IMG/VR virus record: IMGVR_UViG_3300025645_000038
Location: 100,846 to 164,845 of that record
DNA length: 64,000 nt
Direction: 5' to 3' (one strand)
Origin: a virus
Shown: piece by piece, positions 28,162-64,000 of the stretch
Numbering within the stretch: the stretch's first letter is position 1
Layout of the letters: the number at the start of each line of letters is the position of its first letter
The notes under the pieces: model-generated
Told to the model about the DNA's origin: nothing
What the model saw: the letters and a program-made list of their open reading frames with translations, nothing else
The model's database searches: none
Translations under genes and position numbers: made by a program

Positions 28162-28878
28162 ATGAATAAACATTCGTTAAACCGATTCATTGATAAATAT
28201 TATCTTGGTGGGAACTGCTCATCAGTTGTGATTAATAGTAAGGGAGATTCTCTTTCTACTAGATTCATTACGGGTGATAAGAATCTACTTGGTGAACTAA
28301 CCATGAGTGGTTGGAGTTTTGATGAAGCTGACTTAGGTGTGTATAACACAGAGCAGCTCGTTAAACTTCTATCTGTTCTATCAGAGAATATTTCAATGAA
28401 CCTAACCAAAGCTGGTGACAAAGCTGTTTCATTAAAAATATCAGATACAAAGTCTGATGTAAATTATATGCTATCAGATTTGTCTGTTATCAGTTCACCA
28501 CCTAACCTAAAGTCTATACCTGATTTCGAGGTAAAGATTAAAGTTGACAAATCTTTTATGTCAAAGTTTGTTGCAGGTAAGGGTGCTCTAACTGATACGG
28601 ATAACTTTACAGTCATCACAGATGATGAGGGTGTAAAGGTTGTTATTGGTTATGCTGAGATTAACACTAATCGTGTTACTCTTCCTGTAGAAACAGAATC
28701 TTATGATAAGATTGAGAATGTTTCTTTCAATGCTAATCTGTTCAGAGATGTATTAGTGGCTAACAAAGAATGTGAAAGTGCTACATTAGAAGTAAGTTCA
28801 CAAGGTTTGGCTCGTATCAATTTTAAGATTGATGAGTATGATGCTACTTATTACTTGGTTGCTGATACAGATGTATAA
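28162..28878 (+). CDS. Sliding clamp (gp45-like)
   Basis: 238 aa between PolB and clamp loader; clamp-like size; C-terminal S..GLARINF...ATYYLV. Confidence 0.8.
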   Translation: MNKHSLNRFIDKYYLGGNCSSVVINSKGDSLSTRFITGDKNLLGELTMSGWSFDEADLGVYNTEQLVKLLSVLSENISMNLTKAGDKAVSLKISDTKSDVNYMLSDLSVISSPPNLKSIPDFEVKIKVDKSFMSKFVAGKGALTDTDNFTVITDDEGVKVVIGYAEINTNRVTLPVETESYDKIENVSFNANLFRDVLVANKECESATLEVSSQGLARINFKIDEYDATYYLVADTDV

Positions 28879-29639
28879 TGGAATCTTATGTAGATAAATC
28901 TAAAGTATCTTTACGGCCAGTCAATAAAAAACTGGCCAAAGATATGATAGAAAAATACCATTATAGTGGTGTAATGTCGGCTTGTAGATATACTCTTGGT
29001 GTATTTTACAAGTCAGACAACCACAAGTTTTTCGATGGAGATGTCGATGACTTTATTGGTGTAGCTTGTTATGGTTTTCCAGTTGGCAGAAGCGTAGTAT
29101 CTTCTATGTTTACAGAAGATGTATTAGAAAATAAGAATGTTTTGGAATTAAAAAGACTATTTATACATGATGGTTATGGAAAGAACATAGAATCCTATGT
29201 TATATCGCAGAGTTTCAAATGGTTAAAAGAATATTCGCCTGATATTAAAGTATTAATATCTTACGCTGATCCTGAACAAGCTCATGATGGTTGTATCTAC
29301 CAAGCTACTAATTGGATTTATCAAGGTTGTGGTAGTTTTCAGTTGATGCCGACATACTCATTAAGATTAAACGAAGAAGATGATTGGATGCATAGTAGAA
29401 ATGTTTACTCTATGTATGGTTCTAATAATCTTGATAAGATGAAGAAGGCTATAGGACATGACTTCTGGTTAAAAAGAGAAACCACGAAACATAGATATAT
29501 TTACTTTCTCGGTAATAAAAAAGAGAATAGAAATTTTAATAAGATATTGAAACACCCATCGATGGACTATCCAAAAGATACAGAGTTCATTGATGAAGTA
29601 ATTAAAGTAGAAGTAAAGGATAACAAATGGAAAAATTAG
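28878..29639 (+). CDS. Mom-like DNA adenine-modification enzyme (GNAT fold), paralog 1
   Basis: HYS, LEL.RL, N.ESY.I, ISYADP...H.G.IYQATNW.Y.G, K.RY. Confidence 0.8.
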   Translation: MESYVDKSKVSLRPVNKKLAKDMIEKYHYSGVMSACRYTLGVFYKSDNHKFFDGDVDDFIGVACYGFPVGRSVVSSMFTEDVLENKNVLELKRLFIHDGYGKNIESYVISQSFKWLKEYSPDIKVLISYADPEQAHDGCIYQATNWIYQGCGSFQLMPTYSLRLNEEDDWMHSRNVYSMYGSNNLDKMKKAIGHDFWLKRETTKHRYIYFLGNKKENRNFNKILKHPSMDYPKDTEFIDEVIKVEVKDNKWKN

Positions 29640-30550
29640 AACATAGTTTATGGGTTGAGAAATACCGGCCGACATCACTAGATACTTACATTGGGAATGA
29701 ACATCTCAAAAGTAAAGTATCTGTATATCTTGAGAGTGGGGACTTACCACACCTTTTACTGTATGGGAAAGCCGGTACAGGTAAAACCACTCTCGCTAAA
29801 ATATTAGTCAACAACATAGAATGTGACTATATGTATATTAACGCCTCCGATGAGAATAGTGTGGATACGGTTCGTACTAAAGTTCGTGGGTTCGCTTCTA
29901 CGATGGGGTTCAAAGATTATAAGATTATAATCTTAGATGAGTGTGATTACATCACACCTAACGCTCAAGCCGCTTTGCGTAACCTTATGGAGACTTTTTC
30001 TAAACACTGTAGGTTCATTCTAACTTGTAACTTTGTAGAAAGAATAATTGACCCGATACAATCTCGTTGTCAATCATTTCAGGTGATACCACCATCAAAG
30101 AAAGAAGTTGCTATTCATATGACTAATATCCTAAAAGAAGAGGGTGTTGCTTCTAAGATGGATGATATAGCTGGTTTGGTTAACGCTGGTTATCCTGATA
30201 TTCGTAGGGTGATAAACTCTTGTCAAAGGCAAGTCGTAGATGGTATGTTGGTTGTAGACAAACAATCTTTAGTTGAGAGTGACTATAAGATGAAGTTGAT
30301 GGAAATAATTAAGAAAGAAAGTAAGAAAGATGCATTTAAAAGTGCAAGAAAGTTATTGGCTGATAGTCAAGTAACAGACTTCGCTGAACTATATAAGTTG
30401 ATGTATGATGAGGTAGATTCATATGGTACAGGACATATAGCGGAATGTATTTTGATTATAGCTAAGTATCAGTTATCGGATAGTCAGGTAGTTGATAAGG
30501 AAATAAATGCTATGGCTATGATAATAGAATTATTAGGAGTAATAAAATGA
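29627..30550 (+). CDS. Clamp loader large subunit (gp44/RFC AAA+)
   Basis: LWVEKYRP, GKAGTGKT, NASDE, LDECD, SRC. Confidence 0.95.
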   Translation: MEKLEHSLWVEKYRPTSLDTYIGNEHLKSKVSVYLESGDLPHLLLYGKAGTGKTTLAKILVNNIECDYMYINASDENSVDTVRTKVRGFASTMGFKDYKIIILDECDYITPNAQAALRNLMETFSKHCRFILTCNFVERIIDPIQSRCQSFQVIPPSKKEVAIHMTNILKEEGVASKMDDIAGLVNAGYPDIRRVINSCQRQVVDGMLVVDKQSLVESDYKMKLMEIIKKESKKDAFKSARKLLADSQVTDFAELYKLMYDEVDSYGTGHIAECILIIAKYQLSDSQVVDKEINAMAMIIELLGVIK

Positions 30551-30795
30551 GTACGAAACCAATGAAACCATTACCAGGTGGACAACCACCACAACAAGAA
30601 ATAAGTATAGAAGATACAGAATCAATCAAGTGTGATGATTGCGGTAACTATTCTTTTATTAAATCTTACTTTATAAGAAGAATATCACCAATCGTATCAC
30701 CGACAGGTCAAGAAGCATTAGTACCAATCGAAGTATTCAGTTGTGGTAATTGTGGTAAAGTGCCAGACTCAATGATGCCAAAAGGTAATGAGTAA
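30547..30795 (+). CDS. Small zinc-ribbon protein
   Basis: CDDC...CGNC. Confidence 0.75.
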   Translation: MSTKPMKPLPGGQPPQQEISIEDTESIKCDDCGNYSFIKSYFIRRISPIVSPTGQEALVPIEVFSCGNCGKVPDSMMPKGNE

Positions 30796-30937
30796 AGATA
30801 CTGGCGCTGGTAAAGGTGACAAACTAAGAAGAGGAATAACTCAAGATGAGTGGGAAAAGAAATGGGAAAAAATCTTTGGTAAAAAAGAAAAGTCTGTTCG
30901 ACCACATAAATCAAATAACAGCAGTTCAAAATCCTAA
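30788..30937 (+). CDS. Unannotated 49-aa ORF overlapping the clamp-loader small subunit gene
   Basis: MSKDTGAGKGDKLRRGITQDEWEKKWEKIFGKK...; GKG.K.R...W..IF pattern seen in small phage proteins; ATG overlaps the end of the upstream gene. Confidence 0.55.
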   Translation: MSKDTGAGKGDKLRRGITQDEWEKKWEKIFGKKEKSVRPHKSNNSSSKS

Positions 30938-31322
30938 CTATTGGGATGATATATCAGACGAAGATAAGAAGTCTTGGTCTAATTATATGGTAAATAGATT
31001 TCTATCTATGAACTCTGATTGGACAGATTTGGTTAATGAGATTCAGAAGTATCCTATTGAACCTAAAGATTTATATAAAGTTTATACAAGCATCTTACCA
31101 AAGAAAAAACAATGGTTAAGATATATCAAAGGAGATAAAAAAATGAAGTATCCTATATGGGTTTACGAAATAGTCGGTAAACATTTACAATGTAGTATTA
31201 AAGAAGCTAACGAAGCAGTAGAGATGTATCGTATATCAGCTGGTGGACAATCAGAGTTAGCAGACATCATGTTTAAGTATGGTGTAGAAGATAAAGAAGT
31301 AAGGAAGCTTGGACTTATATAG
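30846..31322 (+). CDS. Clamp loader small subunit (gp62-like)
   Basis: YMVNRFLSM, LPKKKQW..YIK; near the gp44-like gene; SD GAGGA. Confidence 0.75.
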   Translation: MSGKRNGKKSLVKKKSLFDHINQITAVQNPNYWDDISDEDKKSWSNYMVNRFLSMNSDWTDLVNEIQKYPIEPKDLYKVYTSILPKKKQWLRYIKGDKKMKYPIWVYEIVGKHLQCSIKEANEAVEMYRISAGGQSELADIMFKYGVEDKEVRKLGLI

Positions 31323-31963
31323 TGTCTGTTACCAACTTCACAGTCGAATCAATACCAAGAAAATCATTAGTACCTTTCGTAGAAAAACATCACTACTCTC
31401 ATAATACAAATGGTGTACAATCGATATACCATTTTGGGTTATATGGTGAAGGTAACTTTGGTTTACCTAAGATGATTGGAGCAGCTATGTACGCTTATCC
31501 ATCTATGCCCGATACCGCTAAGAAGTACAATCCAATCAATCCAACCAAATGTTTAGAACTTAGAAGGTTGGTTTGTATCGATGATACACCTAAGAATACA
31601 GAGAGTTACTTTATAGGTCAGACTTTCAAGTGGTTGAAACAGAATACGGATATGGAAGTTATAGTATCATTTGCTGATGAACATCATGGACATACAGGTG
31701 TGATATACAAAGCTACTAACTTTGAGTATTGGGGTGAAACTGCTGGTGGTAGGATACTGATGGTTGATGGAAAAGAAACACATAGTCGGTCACTTAATCA
31801 AATAAAGAGACCATATGGTAGAGAACTTAATCGTAGATATAAAGCTGGTGATGAAAATATATTTTGGAAGAAGACAAAACCAAAGCATATTTATGTATAC
31901 TATCTCAATAAAATAATTAAAAGAAAAATAAAAAAGCTTGACTTTATCAAGAAAAAGTCGTAG
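31322..31963 (+). CDS. Mom-like DNA adenine-modification enzyme, paralog 2
   Basis: HHYS, LELRRL, NTESYFI, VSFADE..GH.G.IYKATNF.Y.G, KH.Y. Confidence 0.8.
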   Translation: MSVTNFTVESIPRKSLVPFVEKHHYSHNTNGVQSIYHFGLYGEGNFGLPKMIGAAMYAYPSMPDTAKKYNPINPTKCLELRRLVCIDDTPKNTESYFIGQTFKWLKQNTDMEVIVSFADEHHGHTGVIYKATNFEYWGETAGGRILMVDGKETHSRSLNQIKRPYGRELNRRYKAGDENIFWKKTKPKHIYVYYLNKIIKRKIKKLDFIKKKS

Positions 31964-31968
31964 CTTTA
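31937..31968 (+). promoter_or_regulatory. Sigma70-like (early) promoter
   Basis: CTTGACTT...TCGTAGCTTTA with 17-nt spacer, upstream of the Nmad1-type gene. Confidence 0.75.
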
Positions 31969-31989
31969 TACTGTAAATTGGAGTGATAT

Positions 31990-32373
31990 ATGAAGGTTAT
32001 AAAAGACACATCTAAAGGAACAGAAGAAGAATACACAGATATTGTATCTTACATGGAAGATAAATATCCTGAGATGACATCGGAGTTCAAAAAGATACAA
32101 CAAGAACAATATGAATTGTTTCTTCACAAACAACATGACTATGGCCCACAAAACATAGCCGTTGGTCAGATGTTGGTAAACGAAGAAGAGAAGAGACTAT
32201 CCCTTATGGGTATTTGGTTTAGGATAAACGATAAGGTGGAACGTATCAAAACCATACTAATGCGTGGAGACAATGGTTCTCTTGAAGGTGAAGGTTTGGT
32301 AGATAGTTATTCAGACATATCTAACTATGGAGTTATGGCTCAAGTTGTAGCTAGAGGAAAGTGGGCTAAGTGA
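31990..32373 (+). CDS. Nucleotide modification associated domain 1 (DUF1599-type, all-alpha NTP-PPase-like)
   Basis: K..DYG, R..DK..R, DS..DI.NY motifs. Confidence 0.75.
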   Translation: MKVIKDTSKGTEEEYTDIVSYMEDKYPEMTSEFKKIQQEQYELFLHKQHDYGPQNIAVGQMLVNEEEKRLSLMGIWFRINDKVERIKTILMRGDNGSLEGEGLVDSYSDISNYGVMAQVVARGKWAK

Positions 32374-33236
32374 AGAAGATAAGTTATAGTCAGTATTCAA
32401 TGTGGGCTCAATGTCCTCATAGATGGAAAACTGCATACATAGATGGGAACAGAGAGTTTTCTGATAACATACACACACTTTTTGGTACATCAATGCATGA
32501 GGTTATACAAACCTTTCTAACAGTTATGTACAATGACACAGCAAAGATGGCTGAGGCTCTACCATTGGAAGATATGTTACTCACAAGAATGAAGAGAAAC
32601 TTTGAAAGAGTGTTAGAAACGAATGGTGGTGAGATGTTCTGTACTGAAAAGGACATGGTTGAGTTTTATGGTCATGGTGTGGAGATACTAAAGTTTATTA
32701 AGAAGAGAAGAGCTCAATACTTTAGTAAGAAAGGTTATGAACTCGTTGGTATAGAGGTTCCACTAAACTATGACTTACCAAACAATATAAAGTTTATAGG
32801 TTATATAGATATAGTAATCAAAGATACAGTTAGAGATGTAATTAAGATATATGATATTAAGACATCTACTATGGGTTGGAACAAATGGATGAAGGCTGAT
32901 AAGAATAAGACAGACCAATTACTATTATACAAACAATTCTACTCAAAACAATTCAATCATCCTATGGATAGAATAGAAGTGGAATACTTTATTGTGAAGA
33001 GAAAGCTGTATGAGAACTTAGACTTCCCTCAAAAGAGAGTTCAAAAGTTTGTACCAGCAAATGGTAAGCCATCAATCAATCAAGTTGTGAATAGATTAGA
33101 TGAATTTATAAAAGATGGGTTTAATGATGATGGAGAATATCGAACTGAACATATTTATAGGAAAGAGGCATCTAAGAAAAATTGCAAGTATTGTGATTTC
33201 AATCAAACAGAATTTTGTGATGTGGGAGTAAAGTAA
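32370..33236 (+). CDS. PD-(D/E)XK exonuclease (RecB/Cas4-like)
   Basis: SYSQ......CP, FGT..HE, G.ID, D.KTS, QL..Y, C..C.F....C. Confidence 0.85.
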   Translation: MKKISYSQYSMWAQCPHRWKTAYIDGNREFSDNIHTLFGTSMHEVIQTFLTVMYNDTAKMAEALPLEDMLLTRMKRNFERVLETNGGEMFCTEKDMVEFYGHGVEILKFIKKRRAQYFSKKGYELVGIEVPLNYDLPNNIKFIGYIDIVIKDTVRDVIKIYDIKTSTMGWNKWMKADKNKTDQLLLYKQFYSKQFNHPMDRIEVEYFIVKRKLYENLDFPQKRVQKFVPANGKPSINQVVNRLDEFIKDGFNDDGEYRTEHIYRKEASKKNCKYCDFNQTEFCDVGVK

Positions 33237-33667
33237 TGAAAATAAGCTTGAGAATGAACCTTTCTGATTTTATAAACAAAGATAATGAGAAAGATATTAT
33301 TGATAAATTAGAAAGCGTGCATAACGATGATGTAAAGTATTATATTACTTTTTGGTATAAAGATGGAACTGTATCACCACAAGACATAAAAAGATTTCTG
33401 TTAGACTATGAATCCAATTTACACTTCAAGACAAAGATAAAAGTAGATGGTAGGTTACATCCAAATGATTTTATCTGGTATGATATAGTCAGTAGAGAAA
33501 ATGTAAATCCAAAACAAAGGGTTAGATTTCAACATATCTACGACAATGATATTCAGATGTTAAAAGCTATTGATGAGTTTCATAAAGCAGCTAAGTTCTG
33601 TACTACAGAGAAACCACCAAGAGTTCAAAAGAGGAATGACTATGAGAGTAGCAATAGTAGGAAGTAG
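33236..33667 (+). CDS. Hypothetical protein
   Basis: 143-aa ORF with TAATG coupling. Confidence 0.7.
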   Translation: MKISLRMNLSDFINKDNEKDIIDKLESVHNDDVKYYITFWYKDGTVSPQDIKRFLLDYESNLHFKTKIKVDGRLHPNDFIWYDIVSRENVNPKQRVRFQHIYDNDIQMLKAIDEFHKAAKFCTTEKPPRVQKRNDYESSNSRK

Positions 33668-34043
33668 AAAGTATACAAATAAAAGGCGTATACAAGAGTT
33701 TGTATTTAAACTAAAGCAGAAGTATGGTGAAGAGTTAGAGATAGTAAGTGGTGGACAAAAAGATGGTGCTGATGGATACGCTAAGAAATATGCTTTAGAG
33801 TTTGATATAAACTATTCAGAATTTCCACCATCACATTACGCTTACAATCAACATTGTGTCCTCGAAAGTTTTAAATACGGAAGACCATATGCTAGTTGGC
33901 ATTATCATGATAGAAACAAAAAGATAGTTGAATATAGTGATGTTGTAGCAGCATTCATACCTAAAGATACCACATCCAAAGGAACAGAAAGCACACTAAA
34001 AGAAGCTCAGAAAAAAGAAAAAAAATATTGTATAATAAGTTAG
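33642..34043 (+). CDS. SLOG-superfamily protein (YspA/DUF2493-like)
   Basis: AIVGSR, IVSGG..GAD..A..YA, RN..IV..SD...AF, S.GT; start placed at MRVAIVG. Confidence 0.8.
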   Translation: MRVAIVGSRKYTNKRRIQEFVFKLKQKYGEELEIVSGGQKDGADGYAKKYALEFDINYSEFPPSHYAYNQHCVLESFKYGRPYASWHYHDRNKKIVEYSDVVAAFIPKDTTSKGTESTLKEAQKKEKKYCIIS

Positions 34044-34050
34044 TTCTTAT

Positions 34051-34070
34051 ATACTTATATACATATATAC
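34051..34070 (+). promoter_or_regulatory. Phage promoter motif ATACTTATA with ATATAC repeats (candidate RHH operator)
   Basis: ATACTTATATACATATATAC immediately before SD GGAGG. Confidence 0.5.
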
Positions 34071-34082
34071 GGAGGAAATGTT

Positions 34083-34271
34083 ATGTTGAAACTAACATCC
34101 GTAAAGTTATTAGACAATCTATACAAGAAGTTTAAAATAAGCAATTTAGATGATAACTTTACATTACAAAAGCTAATCAATCGCTCAATGGACTTATATG
34201 TTCACAATGAGGACTTTAGACATCAAATAAACGAATGGCAAAATCTTAAACCAAGCGGGAGTGCATTATGA
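34083..34271 (+). CDS. Ribbon-helix-helix-like small DNA-binding protein
   Basis: LTSVKL strand, LY..FK helix, TLQKLINRSMDLY helix. Confidence 0.55.
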   Translation: MLKLTSVKLLDNLYKKFKISNLDDNFTLQKLINRSMDLYVHNEDFRHQINEWQNLKPSGSAL

Positions 34272-34501
34272 GAACTGATTTAATTAAAGCTAGTGAACTA
34301 CACTTTAAAGCACATATTGAAAAACATAGAATAAATGTAGAAAATTTATTAGAAAATGGTGTGGGTGTTGCTGAACATGCAGATATTATGGATACGATAG
34401 AAAAAGAGTTAGAGATTATGGCTGAATATGATGATAAGCTATCTATCTTAAATAAATACTTCACAATCAATGGTGGTTCTAAAGAGGTTATAAATGGTTA
34501 A
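34268..34501 (+). CDS. Hypothetical phage protein
   Basis: 77 aa, GVAEH.DI..TIE.EL motif. Confidence 0.7.
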   Translation: MRTDLIKASELHFKAHIEKHRINVENLLENGVGVAEHADIMDTIEKELEIMAEYDDKLSILNKYFTINGGSKEVING

Positions 34502-60203: not shown

Positions 60204-61069
60204 TTACAGGAGGAGTAGGATTCGTAGGTTCTAATTTAATAGAAAAACTACATAAACAAGGACATGAAGTGATATCTGTAGATAACTATTCTACAGGCAA
60301 AAAAGAGAATGAACATTCTTTTTGTAAATATCATAATGTCGATTTACAAGAACATCCTTTGGAATATGTAAAGATGGAGAAACCAGACATTATATATCAT
60401 TTAGCAGCTAAAGCTAGGATACTACCATCAATACAGAATCCATTACACACTATGAAAAATAATGTAAATAGTATGATACATGTATTAGATTATGCTAGAA
60501 GTAAGAATGTACCCGTAGTATATGCTGGTTCATCGTCTGTTGTTGGTGACATCTATTCTAATCCGTACACATTGTCTAAATTTTATGGTGAAGAACTATG
60601 CAAGATGTATTCAGAGGTTTATGATACACCAATATCTATATGTAGGTTTTATAATGTTTATGGTAAGTATCAGCTTACTGAAGGGGCTTATTGTACGCTT
60701 ATTGGTATCTTTGAGAGACTATATAACAACAACCAGCCCTTGACTATTACAGGTGATGGAGAACAAAGACGAGATTTTACTCATGTTGATGACATTGTGG
60801 ATGGGTTGATTAGATGTGGTAAAGGATTAAATAGTTCTGGTGATAGATTAGTTATCATGGGAAAAACTTTTGAATTGGGTAGGGGTAAAAACTATTCAGT
60901 AAATGAGATAGCTGATACATTTGGTGATTATCCAAGAGAGTATATAGATGTAAGGCCTGGTGAAATGAGAAACACGCTAAATACTGATACAATGGCTAAA
61001 GATATGTTAGGTTGGAATCCAAAGGGTGATGTGATAGATTACATAAAAAATAACATTTTGAAGAAATGA
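60191..61069 (+). CDS. NAD-dependent nucleotide-sugar epimerase/dehydratase
   Basis: TGG.GF.GS, HLAA, SSS, Y..SK, R.YNVYG, GDG.Q.RDF.HV.D. Confidence 0.93.
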   Translation: MQVLVTGGVGFVGSNLIEKLHKQGHEVISVDNYSTGKKENEHSFCKYHNVDLQEHPLEYVKMEKPDIIYHLAAKARILPSIQNPLHTMKNNVNSMIHVLDYARSKNVPVVYAGSSSVVGDIYSNPYTLSKFYGEELCKMYSEVYDTPISICRFYNVYGKYQLTEGAYCTLIGIFERLYNNNQPLTITGDGEQRRDFTHVDDIVDGLIRCGKGLNSSGDRLVIMGKTFELGRGKNYSVNEIADTFGDYPREYIDVRPGEMRNTLNTDTMAKDMLGWNPKGDVIDYIKNNILKK

Positions 61070-61302
61070 CATACTATATATTATTAGAAGGAGATTCCAA
61101 AAACGCTATTTGGGATGAGAATACGTTAGGAGAAGAATCCTTTGGAACATTTTATACAGGAGCTGGTTTTAAGGCGTTAAATACAATAGTTATGAGTGAA
61201 TCACATTTAGTAGAAACAGTCAAAATAGTAGATGAAAAGAATCAGTCTTATTCAGTAGAAGAGTTTGTAAAATTAATATCAAAATGGAAAATTAGGTCTT
61301 GA
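61066..61302 (+). CDS. Hypothetical protein
   Basis: 78-aa coupled ORF. Confidence 0.7.
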   Translation: MTYYILLEGDSKNAIWDENTLGEESFGTFYTGAGFKALNTIVMSESHLVETVKIVDEKNQSYSVEEFVKLISKWKIRS

Positions 61303-61330
61303 CTTATATACCATTTTGTTCGTAGCTTTA
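61298..61330 (+). promoter_or_regulatory. Sigma70-like (early) promoter
   Basis: CTTGACTT...TCGTAGCTTTA with 18-nt spacer. Confidence 0.72.
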
Positions 61331-61341
61331 GGAGTAAGTTA

Positions 61342-61512
61342 ATGGTGGATTATAGATATTTAGAAGAGCTTGAAGACGAAGCATTTGAAGAAAAAACTAA
61401 ACCAAAAAGAAAACCAAAGAAACAAAAGAAAAAATGGAAGGAATTAAGTAATGAGTCTAAAAGGAATAAAAAGACTGGTAAGCTATGGACTAATAAGTCT
61501 AACGGGATTTAA
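61342..61512 (+). CDS. Unannotated 56-aa acidic/basic bipartite protein
   Basis: SD GGAG; MVDYRYLEELEDEAFEEKTKPKRKPKKQKKKW... Confidence 0.55.
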   Translation: MVDYRYLEELEDEAFEEKTKPKRKPKKQKKKWKELSNESKRNKKTGKLWTNKSNGI

Positions 61513-62005
61513 TTTATTTGTAGGGTGTTCATCTCCCTACGAACCAACAGAACTATCTACAATAGAATTTGAGTTAGACACTCGTATGTCTATAGATGGT
61601 AATGGTTATTATCATCTAACATTGGATACAACAAAGTGGCAGACACCTCATAGATTGAGTGGACATGTTTACAGAGATGGTAAACCAATGAATATACTGA
61701 AGTTTGGTTGGGGTAGTAATCACTATTGGATTATAGGAGACGACTTCGGTTATTTTGTAGCAAATACAGGACTAACTGATAATGGAACATATATTGGCTA
61801 TGATACAACATATGTAGATTGGTTTGAAGGATATACAGTACCTATAGTCAACGGTTCATCTTATAGTAACGAGAGTGGAGAAGTAAACACAATGATGGCT
61901 CCTACACGAAACATGAAAGGTGATACTGCTACTATATTCTATGGTTGGTATGATGATTGGAAAGATGAAGAGATAATCGGTGAATTTTATGTAATATTTG
62001 ATTAG
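61451..62005 (+). CDS. Putative lipoprotein
   Basis: Basic N-terminus, hydrophobic stretch and lipobox LFVGC. Confidence 0.65.
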   Translation: MSLKGIKRLVSYGLISLTGFNLFVGCSSPYEPTELSTIEFELDTRMSIDGNGYYHLTLDTTKWQTPHRLSGHVYRDGKPMNILKFGWGSNHYWIIGDDFGYFVANTGLTDNGTYIGYDTTYVDWFEGYTVPIVNGSSYSNESGEVNTMMAPTRNMKGDTATIFYGWYDDWKDEEIIGEFYVIFD

Positions 62006-62016
62006 GAGTTATTATT

Positions 62017-62289
62017 ATGTTGTACGTTATGATAGATAAAAACTATGAGATAGTTAATACTATAGAAGCAGAAAGTTTGAATCACGCTGAAGAATATTTT
62101 GTATCAAGAAAACAATTCGTAGACAAGGATACATTCGATAGTCTGTATAAGGTGTTGTCAAAACAAGAGTATAATTTAAATCAAGAAGCCTTTGAAAGAA
62201 AACCATCATCGGAACAGATACAATGGTGGAAAGACGAAGAGACTTATTTGGATGCTGATGCACCCATAACAAAGAGTAATCATGGCTAA
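62017..62289 (+). CDS. Hypothetical protein
   Basis: 90 aa, SD AGGAG. Confidence 0.7.
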   Translation: MLYVMIDKNYEIVNTIEAESLNHAEEYFVSRKQFVDKDTFDSLYKVLSKQEYNLNQEAFERKPSSEQIQWWKDEETYLDADAPITKSNHG

Positions 62290-62449
62290 ATTAACAAAAG
62301 AACAACAAAAAGAATTAGAGATACTAGCAGCTGAGATAGAGGCTGAAGCTATCCAAATGAAATTAGACTACGAACAAACACCATCGGAAGAGAGTGGTAG
62401 CATAGTGGTGGTTCATGAAAACGCTAAAATATTGGATGAAGAAGAATAA
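62282..62449 (+). CDS. Unannotated 55-aa acidic protein
   Basis: MAKLTKEQQKELEILAAEIEAEAIQM...; fills the gap and overlaps both neighbours. Confidence 0.6.
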   Translation: MAKLTKEQQKELEILAAEIEAEAIQMKLDYEQTPSEESGSIVVVHENAKILDEEE

Positions 62450-63188
62450 ATACGTAGACACATCTAAACTATCTGTTAGGGAGATAGATAGAAAAGTGGC
62501 TAAGGATATGGTGGTAAAATACCATTACTCTAAACAATGGACTAAATGTAGTGTTGCTCTTGGGTTATACTATACCACAGGTAATGAACATCAGTTCTTT
62601 GATGAGCCAGAAGAAAAGTTAATCGGTACGATATGTTATGGAGACCCTATAGGAAGACACTCAGGAGCCTCTATATCAGCGGCTATACCAAGAGAGAATG
62701 TCTATGAGTTGGTAAGGTTATTCGTACATGATGGTTATGGTAGTAATATTGAGTCTTATCTAATAGGAGAAGGATTCAATTGGTTAAAGAAGAATAGAGA
62801 CGATATAAAGGCTCTCATATCATACTCAGATCCACAACAAGGTCATGTCGGTACGATATATCAAGCTACTAATTGGTTATATCAAGGTAATAAGATAAGA
62901 CCAAATGATAGCTGGTTATTTAAATGGGAAGAGGAAGGTAAGTGGCAACATGGTAGAACTATCTTTCCATACTACGGGACAAACGACATAGAGAAGATGA
63001 AAGATTTAGTTGAGAAAGACTTTTGGATAAAGAAAGAGCTAAGAAAACATAGGTATGTATATCTGCTCGGTAGTAAGAATGAAAAGAGGAAGGCTCTAAA
63101 GAATTTAAAACATCCACTATTCCCCTATCCTAAGACAGCGGATATAGTGGAACCAGAAGTAATTAAAATTAATGTAAGGAGTAAATAA
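62436..63188 (+). CDS. Mom-like DNA adenine-modification enzyme, paralog 3
   Basis: YHYS, YEL.RLF.HDGYG.NIES, ISYSDP.QGH.G.IYQATNW.YQG, KHRY; start placed at MKKNKYVD. Confidence 0.8.
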   Translation: MKKNKYVDTSKLSVREIDRKVAKDMVVKYHYSKQWTKCSVALGLYYTTGNEHQFFDEPEEKLIGTICYGDPIGRHSGASISAAIPRENVYELVRLFVHDGYGSNIESYLIGEGFNWLKKNRDDIKALISYSDPQQGHVGTIYQATNWLYQGNKIRPNDSWLFKWEEEGKWQHGRTIFPYYGTNDIEKMKDLVEKDFWIKKELRKHRYVYLLGSKNEKRKALKNLKHPLFPYPKTADIVEPEVIKINVRSK

Positions 63189-63301
63189 TGGACACAATAG
63201 GAATGTGGAACGAACTAGGTTATCTAGATGGTATATTATTCACGGTATGGTTAGGTATACTATACTATGGTAAGTGCTGGATAGATAGTAAATTTAAATA
63301 A
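63188..63301 (+). CDS. Unannotated 37-aa membrane peptide
   Basis: TAATG coupling; MDTIGMWNELGYLDGILFTVWLGILYYGKCWIDSKFK. Confidence 0.55.
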   Translation: MDTIGMWNELGYLDGILFTVWLGILYYGKCWIDSKFK

Positions 63302-63319
63302 ATAATAAGGAGTAATATA

Positions 63320-63427
63320 ATGAACGAAACACAAGCAAATCAGATGATTAATCTTTTGGTATCAATAGAACATAAGTTAAATTCTATAGTTAAAAAGCTA
63401 GAAGAAAAGAAACCAAAAGGTAAATAA
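63320..63427 (+). CDS. Unannotated 35-aa protein
   Basis: SD AAGGAG; TAATG coupling to the next gene. Confidence 0.55.
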   Translation: MNETQANQMINLLVSIEHKLNSIVKKLEEKKPKGK

Positions 63428-63666
63428 TGGATATAACAATAATAGGCTGGGTATGGTTAGGAATATTAGTAGGAACCATACTCGGCTTCATGTTGTGTTC
63501 TTGGTTAACACAATCTAAAGTATCAGACTTAGAGTCAGAGATAGTACATCACATATTCGTAAGAGACTCGCTAAAAGAAGAGATAATCAAGCTAGATAAT
63601 CAAGCTAAACCAAAGCCAAGAAAACGAAGAAATATTAAAGCAAAATCAATAAAAGTTGGTGATTAA
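63427..63666 (+). CDS. Small membrane-anchored protein
   Basis: N-terminal TM helix, coiled coil, basic tail. Confidence 0.65.
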   Translation: MDITIIGWVWLGILVGTILGFMLCSWLTQSKVSDLESEIVHHIFVRDSLKEEIIKLDNQAKPKPRKRRNIKAKSIKVGD

Positions 63667-63678
63667 ATAACTTACTAT

Positions 63679-63687
63679 ATACTTATT
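63679..63687 (+). promoter_or_regulatory. Putative phage promoter motif (ATACTTATT)
   Basis: Recurring motif upstream of the last ORF. Confidence 0.5.
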
Positions 63688-63734
63688 ACTAAGTTAGAAA
63701 CTTGCAAGACTATAACTTAAACGGAGATTAGATA

Positions 63735-64000
63735 GTGAATCAAAATGACCGAAAGGAATTTGAGATTGTTCATTTGAAGATAGATGAACTCAAAAATGAT
63801 ATAGTAGAACTAAAAGCAGATATGGAAAAGGCTCATTCTAAAACGGATGAAAATCTCAGCTTCATTAAGGAAAATCTATTTAATCCCAATCAAGGCTTGT
63901 GGGCTGAAACAAAAGAGAACACACGACATAGACAAGACTCACAGAAGTGGAGAATGACTATCGGTGCCGGTTTTATAGGGTTATTTTTTAAACAAATATA
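63735..64000 (+). CDS. Partial ORF, coiled coil followed by a hydrophobic segment
   Basis: SD GGAG, GTG start, MNQNDRKEFEIVHLKIDELK...; open to the window end. Confidence 0.6.
   Translation, partial: MNQNDRKEFEIVHLKIDELKNDIVELKADMEKAHSKTDENLSFIKENLFNPNQGLWAETKENTRHRQDSQKWRMTIGAGFIGLFFKQI

What the first reader, a model, noticed from the sequence alone, without database searches (positions are those of the whole stretch)
28878..32373. Mom-like DNA hypermodification genes interleaved with the sliding clamp and clamp loader, plus Nmad1
Seen: clamp - Mom1 - loader large - Zn ribbon - loader small - Mom2 - Nmad1-type - nuclease - SLOG, with overlapping stop/start codons around both Mom genes. Both keep HY, EL.RL, ES and S(Y/F)AD...H.G.IY.A.N(W/F).Y.G. 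Known: Mu Mom is a GNAT-fold enzyme making N6-carbamoylmethyladenine against restriction; Nmad1 domains associate with base-modification loci. Inference: a replisome-coupled, multi-enzyme adenine hypermodification system in a T4-like lytic phage, possibly clamp-tethered, with Nmad1/SLOG handling the nucleotide pool.
Basis: partly seen in the sequence, partly recalled or inferred. Interest (0 to 1): 0.75.

Follow-up and report, generated by a model that had tools for sequence, protein, structure and literature searches.

The report
Three Mom DNA-modifier genes among replisome genes
An uncultured marine T4-like phage carries three intact copies of Mom, the enzyme that phage Mu uses to decorate adenines in its DNA against restriction; two copies sit between its sliding-clamp and clamp-loader genes, and many related phages show the same undescribed arrangement.

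Summary
The order on the + strand is PolB, clamp, Mom1, clamp-loader large subunit, Zn-ribbon, clamp-loader small subunit, Mom2, Nmad1/DUF1599, PD-(D/E)XK nuclease, unknown ORF, SLOG. Three of the four junctions around the Mom genes overlap. A third Mom gene lies at 62415-63188.

All three match Pfam Mom (about 150 bits against a 27-bit cut-off). They keep the family-wide residues H58, Y59, R111, S124, D149 and Y159. The Mom1 model matches Mu Mom (8bv8) far better than any other GNAT.

The three belong to old, separately retained lineages. Of 65 distinct related viral loci, 42 hold two or more Mom genes beside PolB, clamp or loader. The lineages differ most in the HTH-like insertion proposed to bind DNA. 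My reading is several tRNA-dependent adenine-N6 modifiers made together with the replisome, each covering a different sequence context.

Clamp tethering is plausible for the Mom1 lineage, whose tails resemble the PolB tail in relatives. It is weak for this phage's own Mom1 and could not be tested. Nothing ties Nmad1, the nuclease or SLOG to Mom chemistry.

The genome's only tRNA is tRNA-Gly(UCC), the donor type Mu Mom uses; this is a lead only. Earlier notes of this scan describe the same pattern in other genomes.

The parts
25604..28099 (+). Family B DNA polymerase (context). Its C-terminus ends ...KKTSMERFF.
   Evidence: phrog_262, 5.1e-187. C-terminus. A strong terminator-like site at 25505-25525 precedes it.
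28162..28878 (+). gp45-like sliding clamp.
   Evidence: phrog_223, 4.5e-13. Orthologues follow PolB in related loci.
28878..29639 (+). Mom1, a Mom-family GNAT of the Mom1 lineage. The start overlaps the clamp stop (TAATG).
   Evidence: PF25680, 149.7 bits. AF2 model pLDDT 82; best PDB match 8bv8, E 4.3e-13, TMt 0.72. H58/Y59/R111/S124/D149/Y159 equivalents kept.
29627..30550 (+). gp44-like clamp-loader large subunit (AAA+). It overlaps the end of Mom1 by 13 nt.
   Evidence: phrog_168, 5.6e-85. Pfam AAA 1.9e-18; a weak Gp44_lid hit (20.9 bits, below the 27-bit cut-off).
30547..30795 (+). Small 4-Cys zinc-ribbon protein between the two loader subunits.
   Evidence: CDDCG ... CGNCG in the translation. 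Only sub-threshold Pfam Zn-ribbon hits. Conserved at this position in relatives at 40-100% identity.
30846..31322 (+). gp62-like clamp-loader small subunit.
   Evidence: phrog_225, 3.5e-12.
31322..31963 (+). Mom2, a divergent Mom-family GNAT of the Mom2 lineage. GTG start overlapping the loader stop (TAGTG).
   Evidence: PF25680, 149.1 bits. phmmer against 8bv8, 1.8e-13. 32% identical to Mom1 but 45% to a Bacillus phage Mom-like protein.
31990..32373 (+). Nmad1/DUF1599 protein, all-helical, function unknown.
   Evidence: PF07659, 31 bits against a 25-bit cut-off. AF2 model pLDDT 68.8, helices only. No informative PDB match.
32370..33236 (+). PD-(D/E)XK (RecB/Cas4-like) nuclease.
   Evidence: PF12705, 1.9e-19; phrog_69 exonuclease. 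Syntenic after the loader in relatives without Mom2.
33236..33667 (+). 143-aa ORF with no family match.
   Evidence: No Pfam, PHROG or NCBIfam hit. Conserved between the nuclease and SLOG in relatives.
33570..34043 (+). SLOG / DprA-like protein. The real start is probably the ATG near 33636.
   Evidence: YAcAr 2.2e-09, cpYpsA 2.1e-07, DNA_processg_A 2.2e-07. Translation.
62415..63188 (+). Mom3, the third Mom-family GNAT (Mom3 lineage), about 33 kb from Mom1. The start could also be the ATG at 62436.
   Evidence: PF25680, 151.3 bits. phrog_1384, 2.5e-50. 48% identical to Mom1.

Best explanation
The phage encodes three catalytically competent Mom-family enzymes. By homology with phage Mu Mom, each takes an aminoacyl group, most likely glycine from Gly-tRNAGly. 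It transfers that group to N6 of adenine in double-stranded phage DNA after replication. This would give N6-carbamoylmethyl-adenine or a close relative, which blocks host restriction.

Mom1 and Mom2 are translated from the same long transcript as the polymerase, clamp and clamp loader. The modifiers would therefore appear together with the replication machinery, unlike Mu's late mom gene.

The three are old, separately retained lineages that differ most in the HTH-like insertion thought to lie in the DNA major groove. They probably recognise different sequence contexts. Together they would modify a larger share of the adenines in a 34% G+C genome than one enzyme could.

Shown here: family membership, fold, conserved catalytic residues, gene arrangement and its conservation in relatives. 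Inferred: activity, donor, product, division of labour and co-transcription.

Nmad1, the PD-(D/E)XK nuclease and SLOG are ordinary neighbours in the replication/recombination block, not parts of the Mom chemistry.
For: Family and fold
- Pfam Mom scores are 149.7, 149.1 and 151.3 bits against a 27.1-bit cut-off.
- The Mom1 AF2 model's best PDB match is Mu Mom 8bv8 (E 4.3e-13, TMt 0.72). The next GNATs score around 1e-5.
- The model has two helices (173-180, 185-192) where Mu has its essential HTH-like insertion.

Residues
- All three paralogs and all 47 non-redundant relatives keep R111, S124, D149 and Y159; H58 and Y59 are kept wherever the N-terminus is present (two relatives are truncated there).
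- These six are also near-universal in 118 family representatives.
- Mutating them in Mu Mom greatly reduces or abolishes activity, except D149 and Y159 which were reported with reduced activity only (PMC13219725).

Lineages
- The tree gives three well-supported lineages (SH-aLRT 98-99).
- 42 of 65 distinct related loci carry two or more Mom genes next to PolB, clamp or loader.
- Large related contigs carry 1 to 4 copies.
- In the HTH-like insertion, identity is 0.54/0.64 within lineages and 0.28 between them. This is the lowest between/within ratio (0.48) of six regions.

Context and need
- Mu Mom modifies the SAS context, which holds about 20% of Mu's adenines. SAS holds only 11.9% of adenines in this genome.
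- Start/stop overlaps occur at three junctions.
- No terminator-like site lies between 25.6 and 35 kb.
Against: - No activity, product or target is measured for any of these proteins.
- R151 and the dimer residue W48, both needed in Mu Mom, are not kept. Position 151 is E, H and Q in Mom1-3; position 48 is K in all three. Neither is conserved across the family either.
- Insertions often evolve fast, so divergence in the HTH-like insertion may only partly reflect specificity.
- Position 151, near the flipped adenine and the tRNA 3' end in the published AF3 model, differs by lineage: E/A/G in the Mom1 lineage, K/N/Q in Mom3, H/T in Mom2. This fits a difference in donor as well as a difference in DNA site.
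- One 90%-complete relative manages with a single Mom, so multiplicity is not essential.
Confidence: 0.6

Rival explanations
1. Clamp-riding modifiers. Mom1-lineage enzymes dock on the phage sliding clamp through a short aromatic C-terminal tail, as the polymerase does. New DNA would then be modified directly behind the fork. This can be true together with the main explanation.
For: - 24 of 25 full-length Mom1-lineage proteins end, after a variable linker, in K/N/G followed by aromatic residues: KFI, NFW, KFW, KYW, KFFDI, GFYE, KWKN.
- The cognate PolBs end in ERFF, DRFF, EKYF or EKFFSF.
- One Mom1-lineage representative (P0143) ends ...KTKSMERYF, against the window PolB's ...KKTSMERFF.
- Only 14 of 118 family representatives have such an ending, and Mom3-lineage tails have none.
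- Mom1 sits between the clamp and loader genes.
- From my own knowledge, not tested here: T4 and RB69 polymerases, gp33 and gp55 bind gp45 through extreme C-terminal hydrophobic peptides.
Against: - The window's own Mom1 and its two closest relatives end in KWK(N/D/Q), which resembles ERFF poorly.
- In the AF2 model, residues 240-244 of the extension form a strand with pLDDT about 80, leaving only about 6 flexible residues.
- No binding test could be run.
- Mu Mom works without any clamp.
Confidence: 0.25
2. Different donors. The paralogs use different aminoacyl-tRNAs, or target different bases, and put chemically different adducts on the DNA.
For: - Position 151 differs by lineage: acidic or small in Mom1, basic or polar in Mom3, H/T in Mom2.
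- W181 is kept in the Mom1 and Mom3 lineages but is E/R in Mom2.
- Silva et al. state that co-substrate and substrate could not be predicted from the structure.
Against: - The core 111-160 is the most similar region between lineages (0.60 identity).
- The two metagenomic homologues tested by Silva et al. are described as active in the same assay.
- The only tRNAs encoded by this phage and its two nearest large relatives are glycine tRNAs or glycine-like.
Confidence: 0.15
3. Obligate hetero-oligomer. Mom3-lineage and Mom1-lineage proteins work only as a mixed dimer, as Mu Mom works only as a homodimer.
For: - The two lineages are usually adjacent, often with overlapping stop and start (gaps of -17 to +4 nt in 14 pairs).
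- Mu Mom is a tight dimer, and its monomeric W48A form is nearly inactive.
Against: - In this genome Mom1 and Mom3 lie 33 kb apart.
- A 90%-complete relative (G002) has only one Mom gene.
- Both lineages keep the full catalytic set.
- Several loci with full 6-kb flanks hold only one lineage.
Confidence: 0.1
4. This is a multi-enzyme system in which Nmad1 and SLOG process nucleotides for the Mom enzymes.
For: - Nmad1 lies 26 nt after Mom2.
- Pfam names DUF1599 'nucleotide modification associated domain 1'.
Against: - Mu Mom needs only charged tRNA and dsDNA.
- The nuclease, the unknown ORF and SLOG keep their place after the loader in relatives that lack Mom2 or Nmad1.
- Nmad1 lies next to gp32 in another clade.
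- The Nmad1 model is a plain helical hairpin with no informative match.
Confidence: 0.07
5. The proteins act on something other than DNA, such as tRNA, other RNA or protein.
For: - GNATs are versatile.
- R151 and W48 of Mu Mom are not kept.
Against: - The Mom-specific HTH-like insertion is present, and the closest fold match is Mu Mom itself.
- The genes sit among DNA-replication genes in many lineages.
Confidence: 0.05

Closest known systems
Phage Mu Mom (Pfam PF25680; PDB 8bv8; Silva et al., Nat Commun 2026, PMC13219725)
   Same: - GNAT fold with the HTH-like insertion.
- H58, Y59, R111, S124, D149 and Y159 conserved.
- Phage-encoded, with a presumed anti-restriction role through adenine N6 modification.
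   Different: - Three paralogs rather than one.
- Placed in the early/replication gene run of a lytic T4-like phage. Mu has a late gene controlled by Com.
- R151 and W48 are not kept.
- Mom1 and Mom3 carry a 20-residue C-terminal extension beyond Mu's terminal YPK.
- Only 22% identity in the structural alignment.
Single-copy Mom-like genes of cultured phages (e.g. Polaribacter phage P12002L gp53, Bacillus phage SplendidRed, Listeria phage A511 gp178)
   Same: Same Pfam and PHROG family. Identity is 45% (Mom1 to the Polaribacter phage; Mom2 to the Bacillus phage).
   Different: - Every one of the 263 and 310 matching GenBank phage records showed a single matching place.
- The P12002L gene sits beside a methyltransferase, not replisome genes.
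C-terminal clamp-binding peptides of T4-family gp43, gp33 and gp55 (recalled from the literature, not tested here)
   Same: Extreme C-terminal position, aromatic pair and variable linker. In relatives the Mom tail closely resembles the PolB tail.
   Different: - The window's Mom1 tail (KWKN) is a poor copy.
- No DNA-modifying enzyme is known to me to use this route in phages.
Fem aminoacyl-transferases of Staphylococcus with their non-proteinogenic tRNA-Gly (recalled from the literature)
   Same: - GNAT-fold enzymes that draw glycine from tRNA-Gly outside translation.
- This phage and two relatives encode glycine tRNAs, some of them non-canonical.
   Different: - The substrate is peptidoglycan, not DNA.
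- The window's own tRNA-Gly looks canonical and lies 118 kb from Mom1.

Membership tests
Mom (PF25680) | Score above Pfam's gathering cut-off over the whole domain. | tested here: met
   149.7, 149.1 and 151.3 bits against 27.1, covering profile positions 1-3 to 194-202.
Mom (PF25680) | GNAT fold closest to Mu Mom, with the HTH-like insertion (Mu 175-209). | tested here: met
   Mom1 model pLDDT 82. 8bv8 is the top match at E 4.3e-13; other GNATs score around 1e-5. Helices 173-180 and 185-192 fill the insertion. Mom2 matches 8bv8 by phmmer at 1.8e-13. Mom2 and Mom3 were not folded.
Mom (PF25680) | Residues important for Mu Mom activity that are conserved family-wide: H58, Y59, R111, S124, D149, Y159. 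| tested here: met
   All are present in Mom1, Mom2 and Mom3 and in 110-118 of 118 representatives.
Mom (PF25680) | R151 (essential in Mu) and W48 (Mu dimer contact). | tested here: not met
   Position 151 is E, H and Q; position 48 is K in all three. Neither is conserved in the family: position 151 is mostly S/E/N/G, position 48 mostly K/S/D/E. They appear to be features of the Mu lineage rather than of the family.
Mom (PF25680) | Gly-tRNAGly-dependent modification of adenine N6 in dsDNA. | not testable with these tools
   This needs expression plus nucleoside LC-MS, or an in vitro assay.
T4-type sliding-clamp client | Extreme C-terminal hydrophobic/aromatic peptide like that of the cognate polymerase. 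| tested here: inconclusive
   Window Mom1 ends KWKN and its PolB ends ERFF. Relatives of the Mom1 lineage end KFI, NFW, KFFDI or SMERYF; their PolBs end DRFF, EKFFSF or ERFF.
T4-type sliding-clamp client | Physical binding to the clamp. | not testable with these tools
Nmad1 / DUF1599 (PF07659) | Score above Pfam's gathering cut-off. | tested here: met
   31.0 bits against 25. Atlas neighbours are all DUF1599 clusters from viruses. The family has no known function.
T4-like replisome (gp43, gp45, gp44/62) | Polymerase, clamp and two-subunit loader in one gene run, in a phage with a T4-type capsid and portal. | tested here: met
   PHROG hits. Gp23 2.6e-74 and Portal_T4 5.8e-77 in the same record.

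The most novel reading that the evidence does not exclude
A replication-coupled momylation machine. Several Mom paralogs with complementary sequence preferences are made with the replisome. At least the Mom1 lineage is carried on the sliding clamp by a polymerase-like tail. They draw on a phage-encoded glycine tRNA, so that most adenines of the new DNA are hypermodified as it is copied.
Probability: 0.13. Interest if true: 0.8.

Novelty: new variant of a known kind. Interest (0 to 1): 0.6.

Why it matters
Mom's chemistry was solved only in 2026, and for one enzyme in one temperate phage. This marine group of T4-like phages keeps two to four diverged Mom genes inside its replication genes. The arrangement was absent from the 50,697 GenBank phage records searched and from the papers found here.

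If the paralogs differ in DNA context or in donor, they are a ready-made natural panel for learning what sets Mom's specificity. They could also serve as new site-specific DNA-labelling enzymes.

If the aromatic tails dock on the clamp, this would be, to my knowledge, a first case of a phage DNA-modifying enzyme recruited by the sliding clamp. The eukaryotic parallel is DNMT1 on PCNA.

Tried and rejected
- Megablast of 28000-34100 against GenBank phages found no match.
Clamp binding and expression therefore remain untested.
- Nmad1 gave nothing beyond a generic helical hairpin. The AF2 model has pLDDT 68.8. Foldseek PDB found nothing at E <= 0.001. VIA wide search gave a best Z of 7.8, on designed helical proteins. 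The profile against PDB sequences gave a best E of 0.13. NCBIfam had no hit.
- Paper searches for Nmad1/DUF1599 found nothing useful, and the 2013 Iyer et al. paper is not held.
- A private tRNA-Gly mimic beside the Mom genes, as earlier notes of this scan report in other genomes, was not found. Rfam at E <= 10 over 28000-34500 and 61000-64000 found no tRNA-like match. A covariance model built from six glycine tRNAs of this phage group found nothing in the window with filters off (best E 1.5). It found nothing at E <= 0.1 in 80 related loci.
- tRNA-Gly as a general partner of these Mom arrays was not borne out. Other Mom-pair contigs carry tRNA-Met, tRNA-Ala or tRNA-Arg, or large tRNA sets. 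Many contigs carry none, but most of these are fragments.
- An obligate Mom1/Mom3 heterodimer is unlikely, because a 90%-complete relative has one Mom only.
- The contig of the Mom protein with the SMERYF tail is only 938 bp, so its own polymerase could not be read.

Full report
WHAT IS THERE

The window is the last 64 kb of a 164,845-bp linear IMG/VR virus record, about 79% complete. All genes of the region lie on the + strand:
- PolB, 25604-28099.
- gp45-like clamp, 28162-28878.
- Mom1, 28878-29639.
- gp44-like loader, 29627-30550.
- 4-Cys zinc ribbon, 30547-30795.
- gp62-like loader, 30846-31322.
- Mom2, 31322-31963.
- Nmad1/DUF1599, 31990-32373.
- PD-(D/E)XK nuclease, 32370-33236.
- 143-aa ORF without a family, 33236-33667.
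- SLOG/DprA-like protein, 33570-34043.

Three of the four Mom junctions overlap: TAATG, 13 nt, and TAGTG with a GTG start. A strong terminator-like hairpin at 25505-25525 precedes PolB, and none follows up to 35 kb. One transcript is therefore likely, though this is an inference. The record also encodes a T4-type capsid and portal, so 'T4-like' is right. A Pfam search of the whole record found a third Mom gene at window 62415-63188.

ARE THEY MOM ENZYMES?

All three score about 150 bits on Pfam Mom against a 27-bit cut-off. Mom2 matches the Mu Mom crystal sequence directly at 1.8e-13. An AF2 model of Mom1 (pLDDT 82) has Mu Mom 8bv8 as its best PDB match: E 4.3e-13, against about 1e-5 for ordinary GNATs. 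The model has two helices where Mu has its HTH-like insertion.

The current mechanism comes from Silva et al. 2026 (PMC13219725). Mu Mom alone transfers glycine from Gly-tRNAGly to N6 of adenine in dsDNA after replication. The adduct then rearranges to N6-carbamoylmethyl-adenine.
- H58, Y59, R111, S124, D149 and Y159 are kept in all three paralogs. R111, S124, D149 and Y159 are kept in all 47 non-redundant relatives, and H58/Y59 wherever the N-terminus is present.
- The same six are kept in 110-118 of 118 family representatives.
- R151 and W48, which Mu needs, are not kept here. They are not conserved across the family either, so their absence does not argue against activity.

THE PARALOGS ARE OLD AND THE ARRANGEMENT IS CONSERVED

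Mom1 and Mom3 are 48% identical; Mom2 is 32-35% identical to them. Mom2 is closer (45%) to Mom-like proteins of unrelated cultured phages.

A search of IMG/VR with Mom1 returned 80 loci. The tree of 48 non-redundant Mom proteins from them, rooted on Mu Mom, has three supported lineages. Most relatives carry a Mom3-lineage gene followed by a Mom1-lineage gene, often with overlapping stop and start. In all, 42 of 65 distinct loci have two or more Mom genes within 6 kb.

The position within the replication block varies:
- between clamp and loader in the window's clade;
- between the large loader subunit and the zinc ribbon, in two or three copies, in L019-L024;
- after gp32, UvsX and RNase H and before PolB in others.

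Large contigs hold 1 to 4 copies. Every GenBank phage record matched by Mom1 or Mom2 (310 and 263 records) showed a single matching place. The papers that mention Mom-like genes or momylation do not describe paralog arrays.

WHAT THE PARALOGS MAY DIVIDE BETWEEN THEM

I compared identity within and between the Mom1 and Mom3 lineages by region, in Mu numbering.
- The core 111-160 is the most alike: 0.60 between lineages.
- The HTH-like insertion 175-209 is the least alike: 0.28 between, against 0.54 and 0.64 within. Its ratio of 0.48 is the lowest of six regions.

Silva et al. propose that this insertion lies in the major groove, so different sequence contexts are the simplest reading. There is also a plausible need. 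Mu Mom modifies SAS sites, which hold about 20% of Mu's adenines. In this 34% G+C genome SAS holds only 11.9% of adenines, WAW 39%, and WAS and SAW about 24% each.

A difference in donor cannot be excluded. Position 151, near the flipped base and the tRNA end in the published model, differs by lineage.

CLAMP TETHERING

After the YPK that ends Mu Mom, Mom1- and Mom3-lineage proteins carry about 20 more residues.
- In the Mom1 lineage, 24 of 25 full-length proteins end in K/N/G plus aromatics: KFI, NFW, KFW, KYW, KFFDI, GFYE.
- The polymerases of the same phages end in ERFF, DRFF, EKYF or EKFFSF.
- One Mom1-lineage representative ends ...KTKSMERYF, close to the window PolB's ...KKTSMERFF.
- Mom3-lineage tails have no aromatics. 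Only 14 of 118 family representatives have such an ending.

This looks like the C-terminal clamp-binding peptides of T4-family polymerases and late transcription factors, which I recall from the literature. For the window itself the case is weaker. Mom1 ends KWKN, and in the model residues 240-244 of the extension form a strand on the domain. I reached this idea before reading earlier notes of this scan that make the same point for other genomes.

THE NEIGHBOURS

The nuclease, the unknown ORF and SLOG follow the small loader subunit in all clades that have it, with or without Mom2 and Nmad1. Nmad1 is present without Mom2 in L010, and it sits beside gp32 in the L029 clade. Its model is a helical hairpin with no informative match. 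Mu Mom needs no helper. I therefore see no support for a nucleotide-pool role.

THE GLYCINE tRNA LEAD

ARAGORN finds one tRNA in the whole record: tRNA-Gly(UCC), 118 kb from Mom1 and next to a tmRNA.

Two related lineages carry glycine tRNAs about 1.4 kb upstream of PolB.
- The triple-Mom contigs G003/G008 carry tRNA-Gly(UCC), tRNA-Gly(ACC) and a glycine-like tRNA with a 6-nt anticodon loop.
- The double-Mom contigs G006/G007 carry tRNA-Gly(UCC) and the same odd tRNA. Its stem shows compensatory changes between the two lineages.
- All six RNAs have G1-C72, C2-G71, G3-C70 and U73. As I recall, these are the bacterial GlyRS identity set.

Against a link:
- Other Mom-pair contigs carry Met, Ala or Arg tRNAs, or none.
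- No tRNA-like RNA lies near the Mom genes in the window or in 80 loci.
- Glycine makes up 8.6% of this phage's codons, 29% of them GGA, so a translational role is enough to explain the tRNA.

I rate a functional link at about one in five.

VERDICT

The proteins are new members of a known family. The multi-paralog, replisome-embedded arrangement with polymerase-like tails is a new variant that I did not find in print.

Noticed in passing
Outside the window: G000:C1:10909-10981 (L140:210-282), with a tmRNA at G000:C1:9378-9797: The only tRNA in the 164.8-kb record is tRNA-Gly(UCC), canonical in shape, next to a tmRNA. Gly-tRNAGly is Mu Mom's co-substrate, but glycine is also 8.6% of the phage's codons.
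   Followed up: partly
L090:1501-1573 (+) and L118:1584-1655 (-), relatives G003 and G006, about 1.4 kb upstream of PolB: A conserved glycine-like tRNA with a 6-nt anticodon loop (TTTCCA). It keeps the glycine acceptor-stem identity set, and its anticodon stem shows compensatory changes between the two lineages. It sits beside normal tRNA-Gly(UCC) and, in G003, tRNA-Gly(ACC). ARAGORN calls it only at relaxed settings. It may be a non-translational glycine carrier.
   Followed up: partly
window 34494-61069: About 25 kb of sugar-nucleotide and glycosyltransferase genes lie between the replication block and Mom3. They include GT1, GT2 and TOD1-like transferases, a sugar C-methyltransferase, an RmlD-like reductase, an asparagine-synthase-like amidotransferase and a hexapeptide acyltransferase. 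Also present are a PIG-L deacetylase, a HAD phosphatase, a cupin, an NTP-transferase with a kinase domain, a SIS isomerase, a transketolase, a GtrB-like protein and an epimerase. The target (DNA, virion or host surface) is unknown.
   Followed up: partly
window 22754-25492 and 25505-25525: The 912-aa gene between the ribonucleotide reductase and PolB had only a weak PHROG hit here. Another note of this scan calls it a TonB-dependent receptor. It is followed by the only strong terminator-like hairpin of the region.
   Followed up: no
window 30547-30795: A small 4-Cys zinc-ribbon gene sits between the two clamp-loader subunits and is conserved at that spot across the related loci. As far as I recall, T4 itself has nothing there.
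   Followed up: partly
L029:6795-7472 and L029:8376-9893: In a related clade the Mom pair is followed by a sulfotransferase-like gene and a GmrSD_N (DUF262)-like gene before PolB. These may be further parts of DNA-modification or anti-modification conflict systems.
   Followed up: no
G003:C1:42844-43290: The triple-Mom relative has a fourth, weak Mom-like match (26.5 bits, just under the cut-off) inside a 573-aa open frame. It may be a distant Mom/DruA-like fusion.
   Followed up: no
window 33570-33667: The longest SLOG frame overlaps the preceding ORF by 98 nt. The Pfam match starts at residue 25, and an ATG near 33636 is the likelier start.
   Followed up: partly
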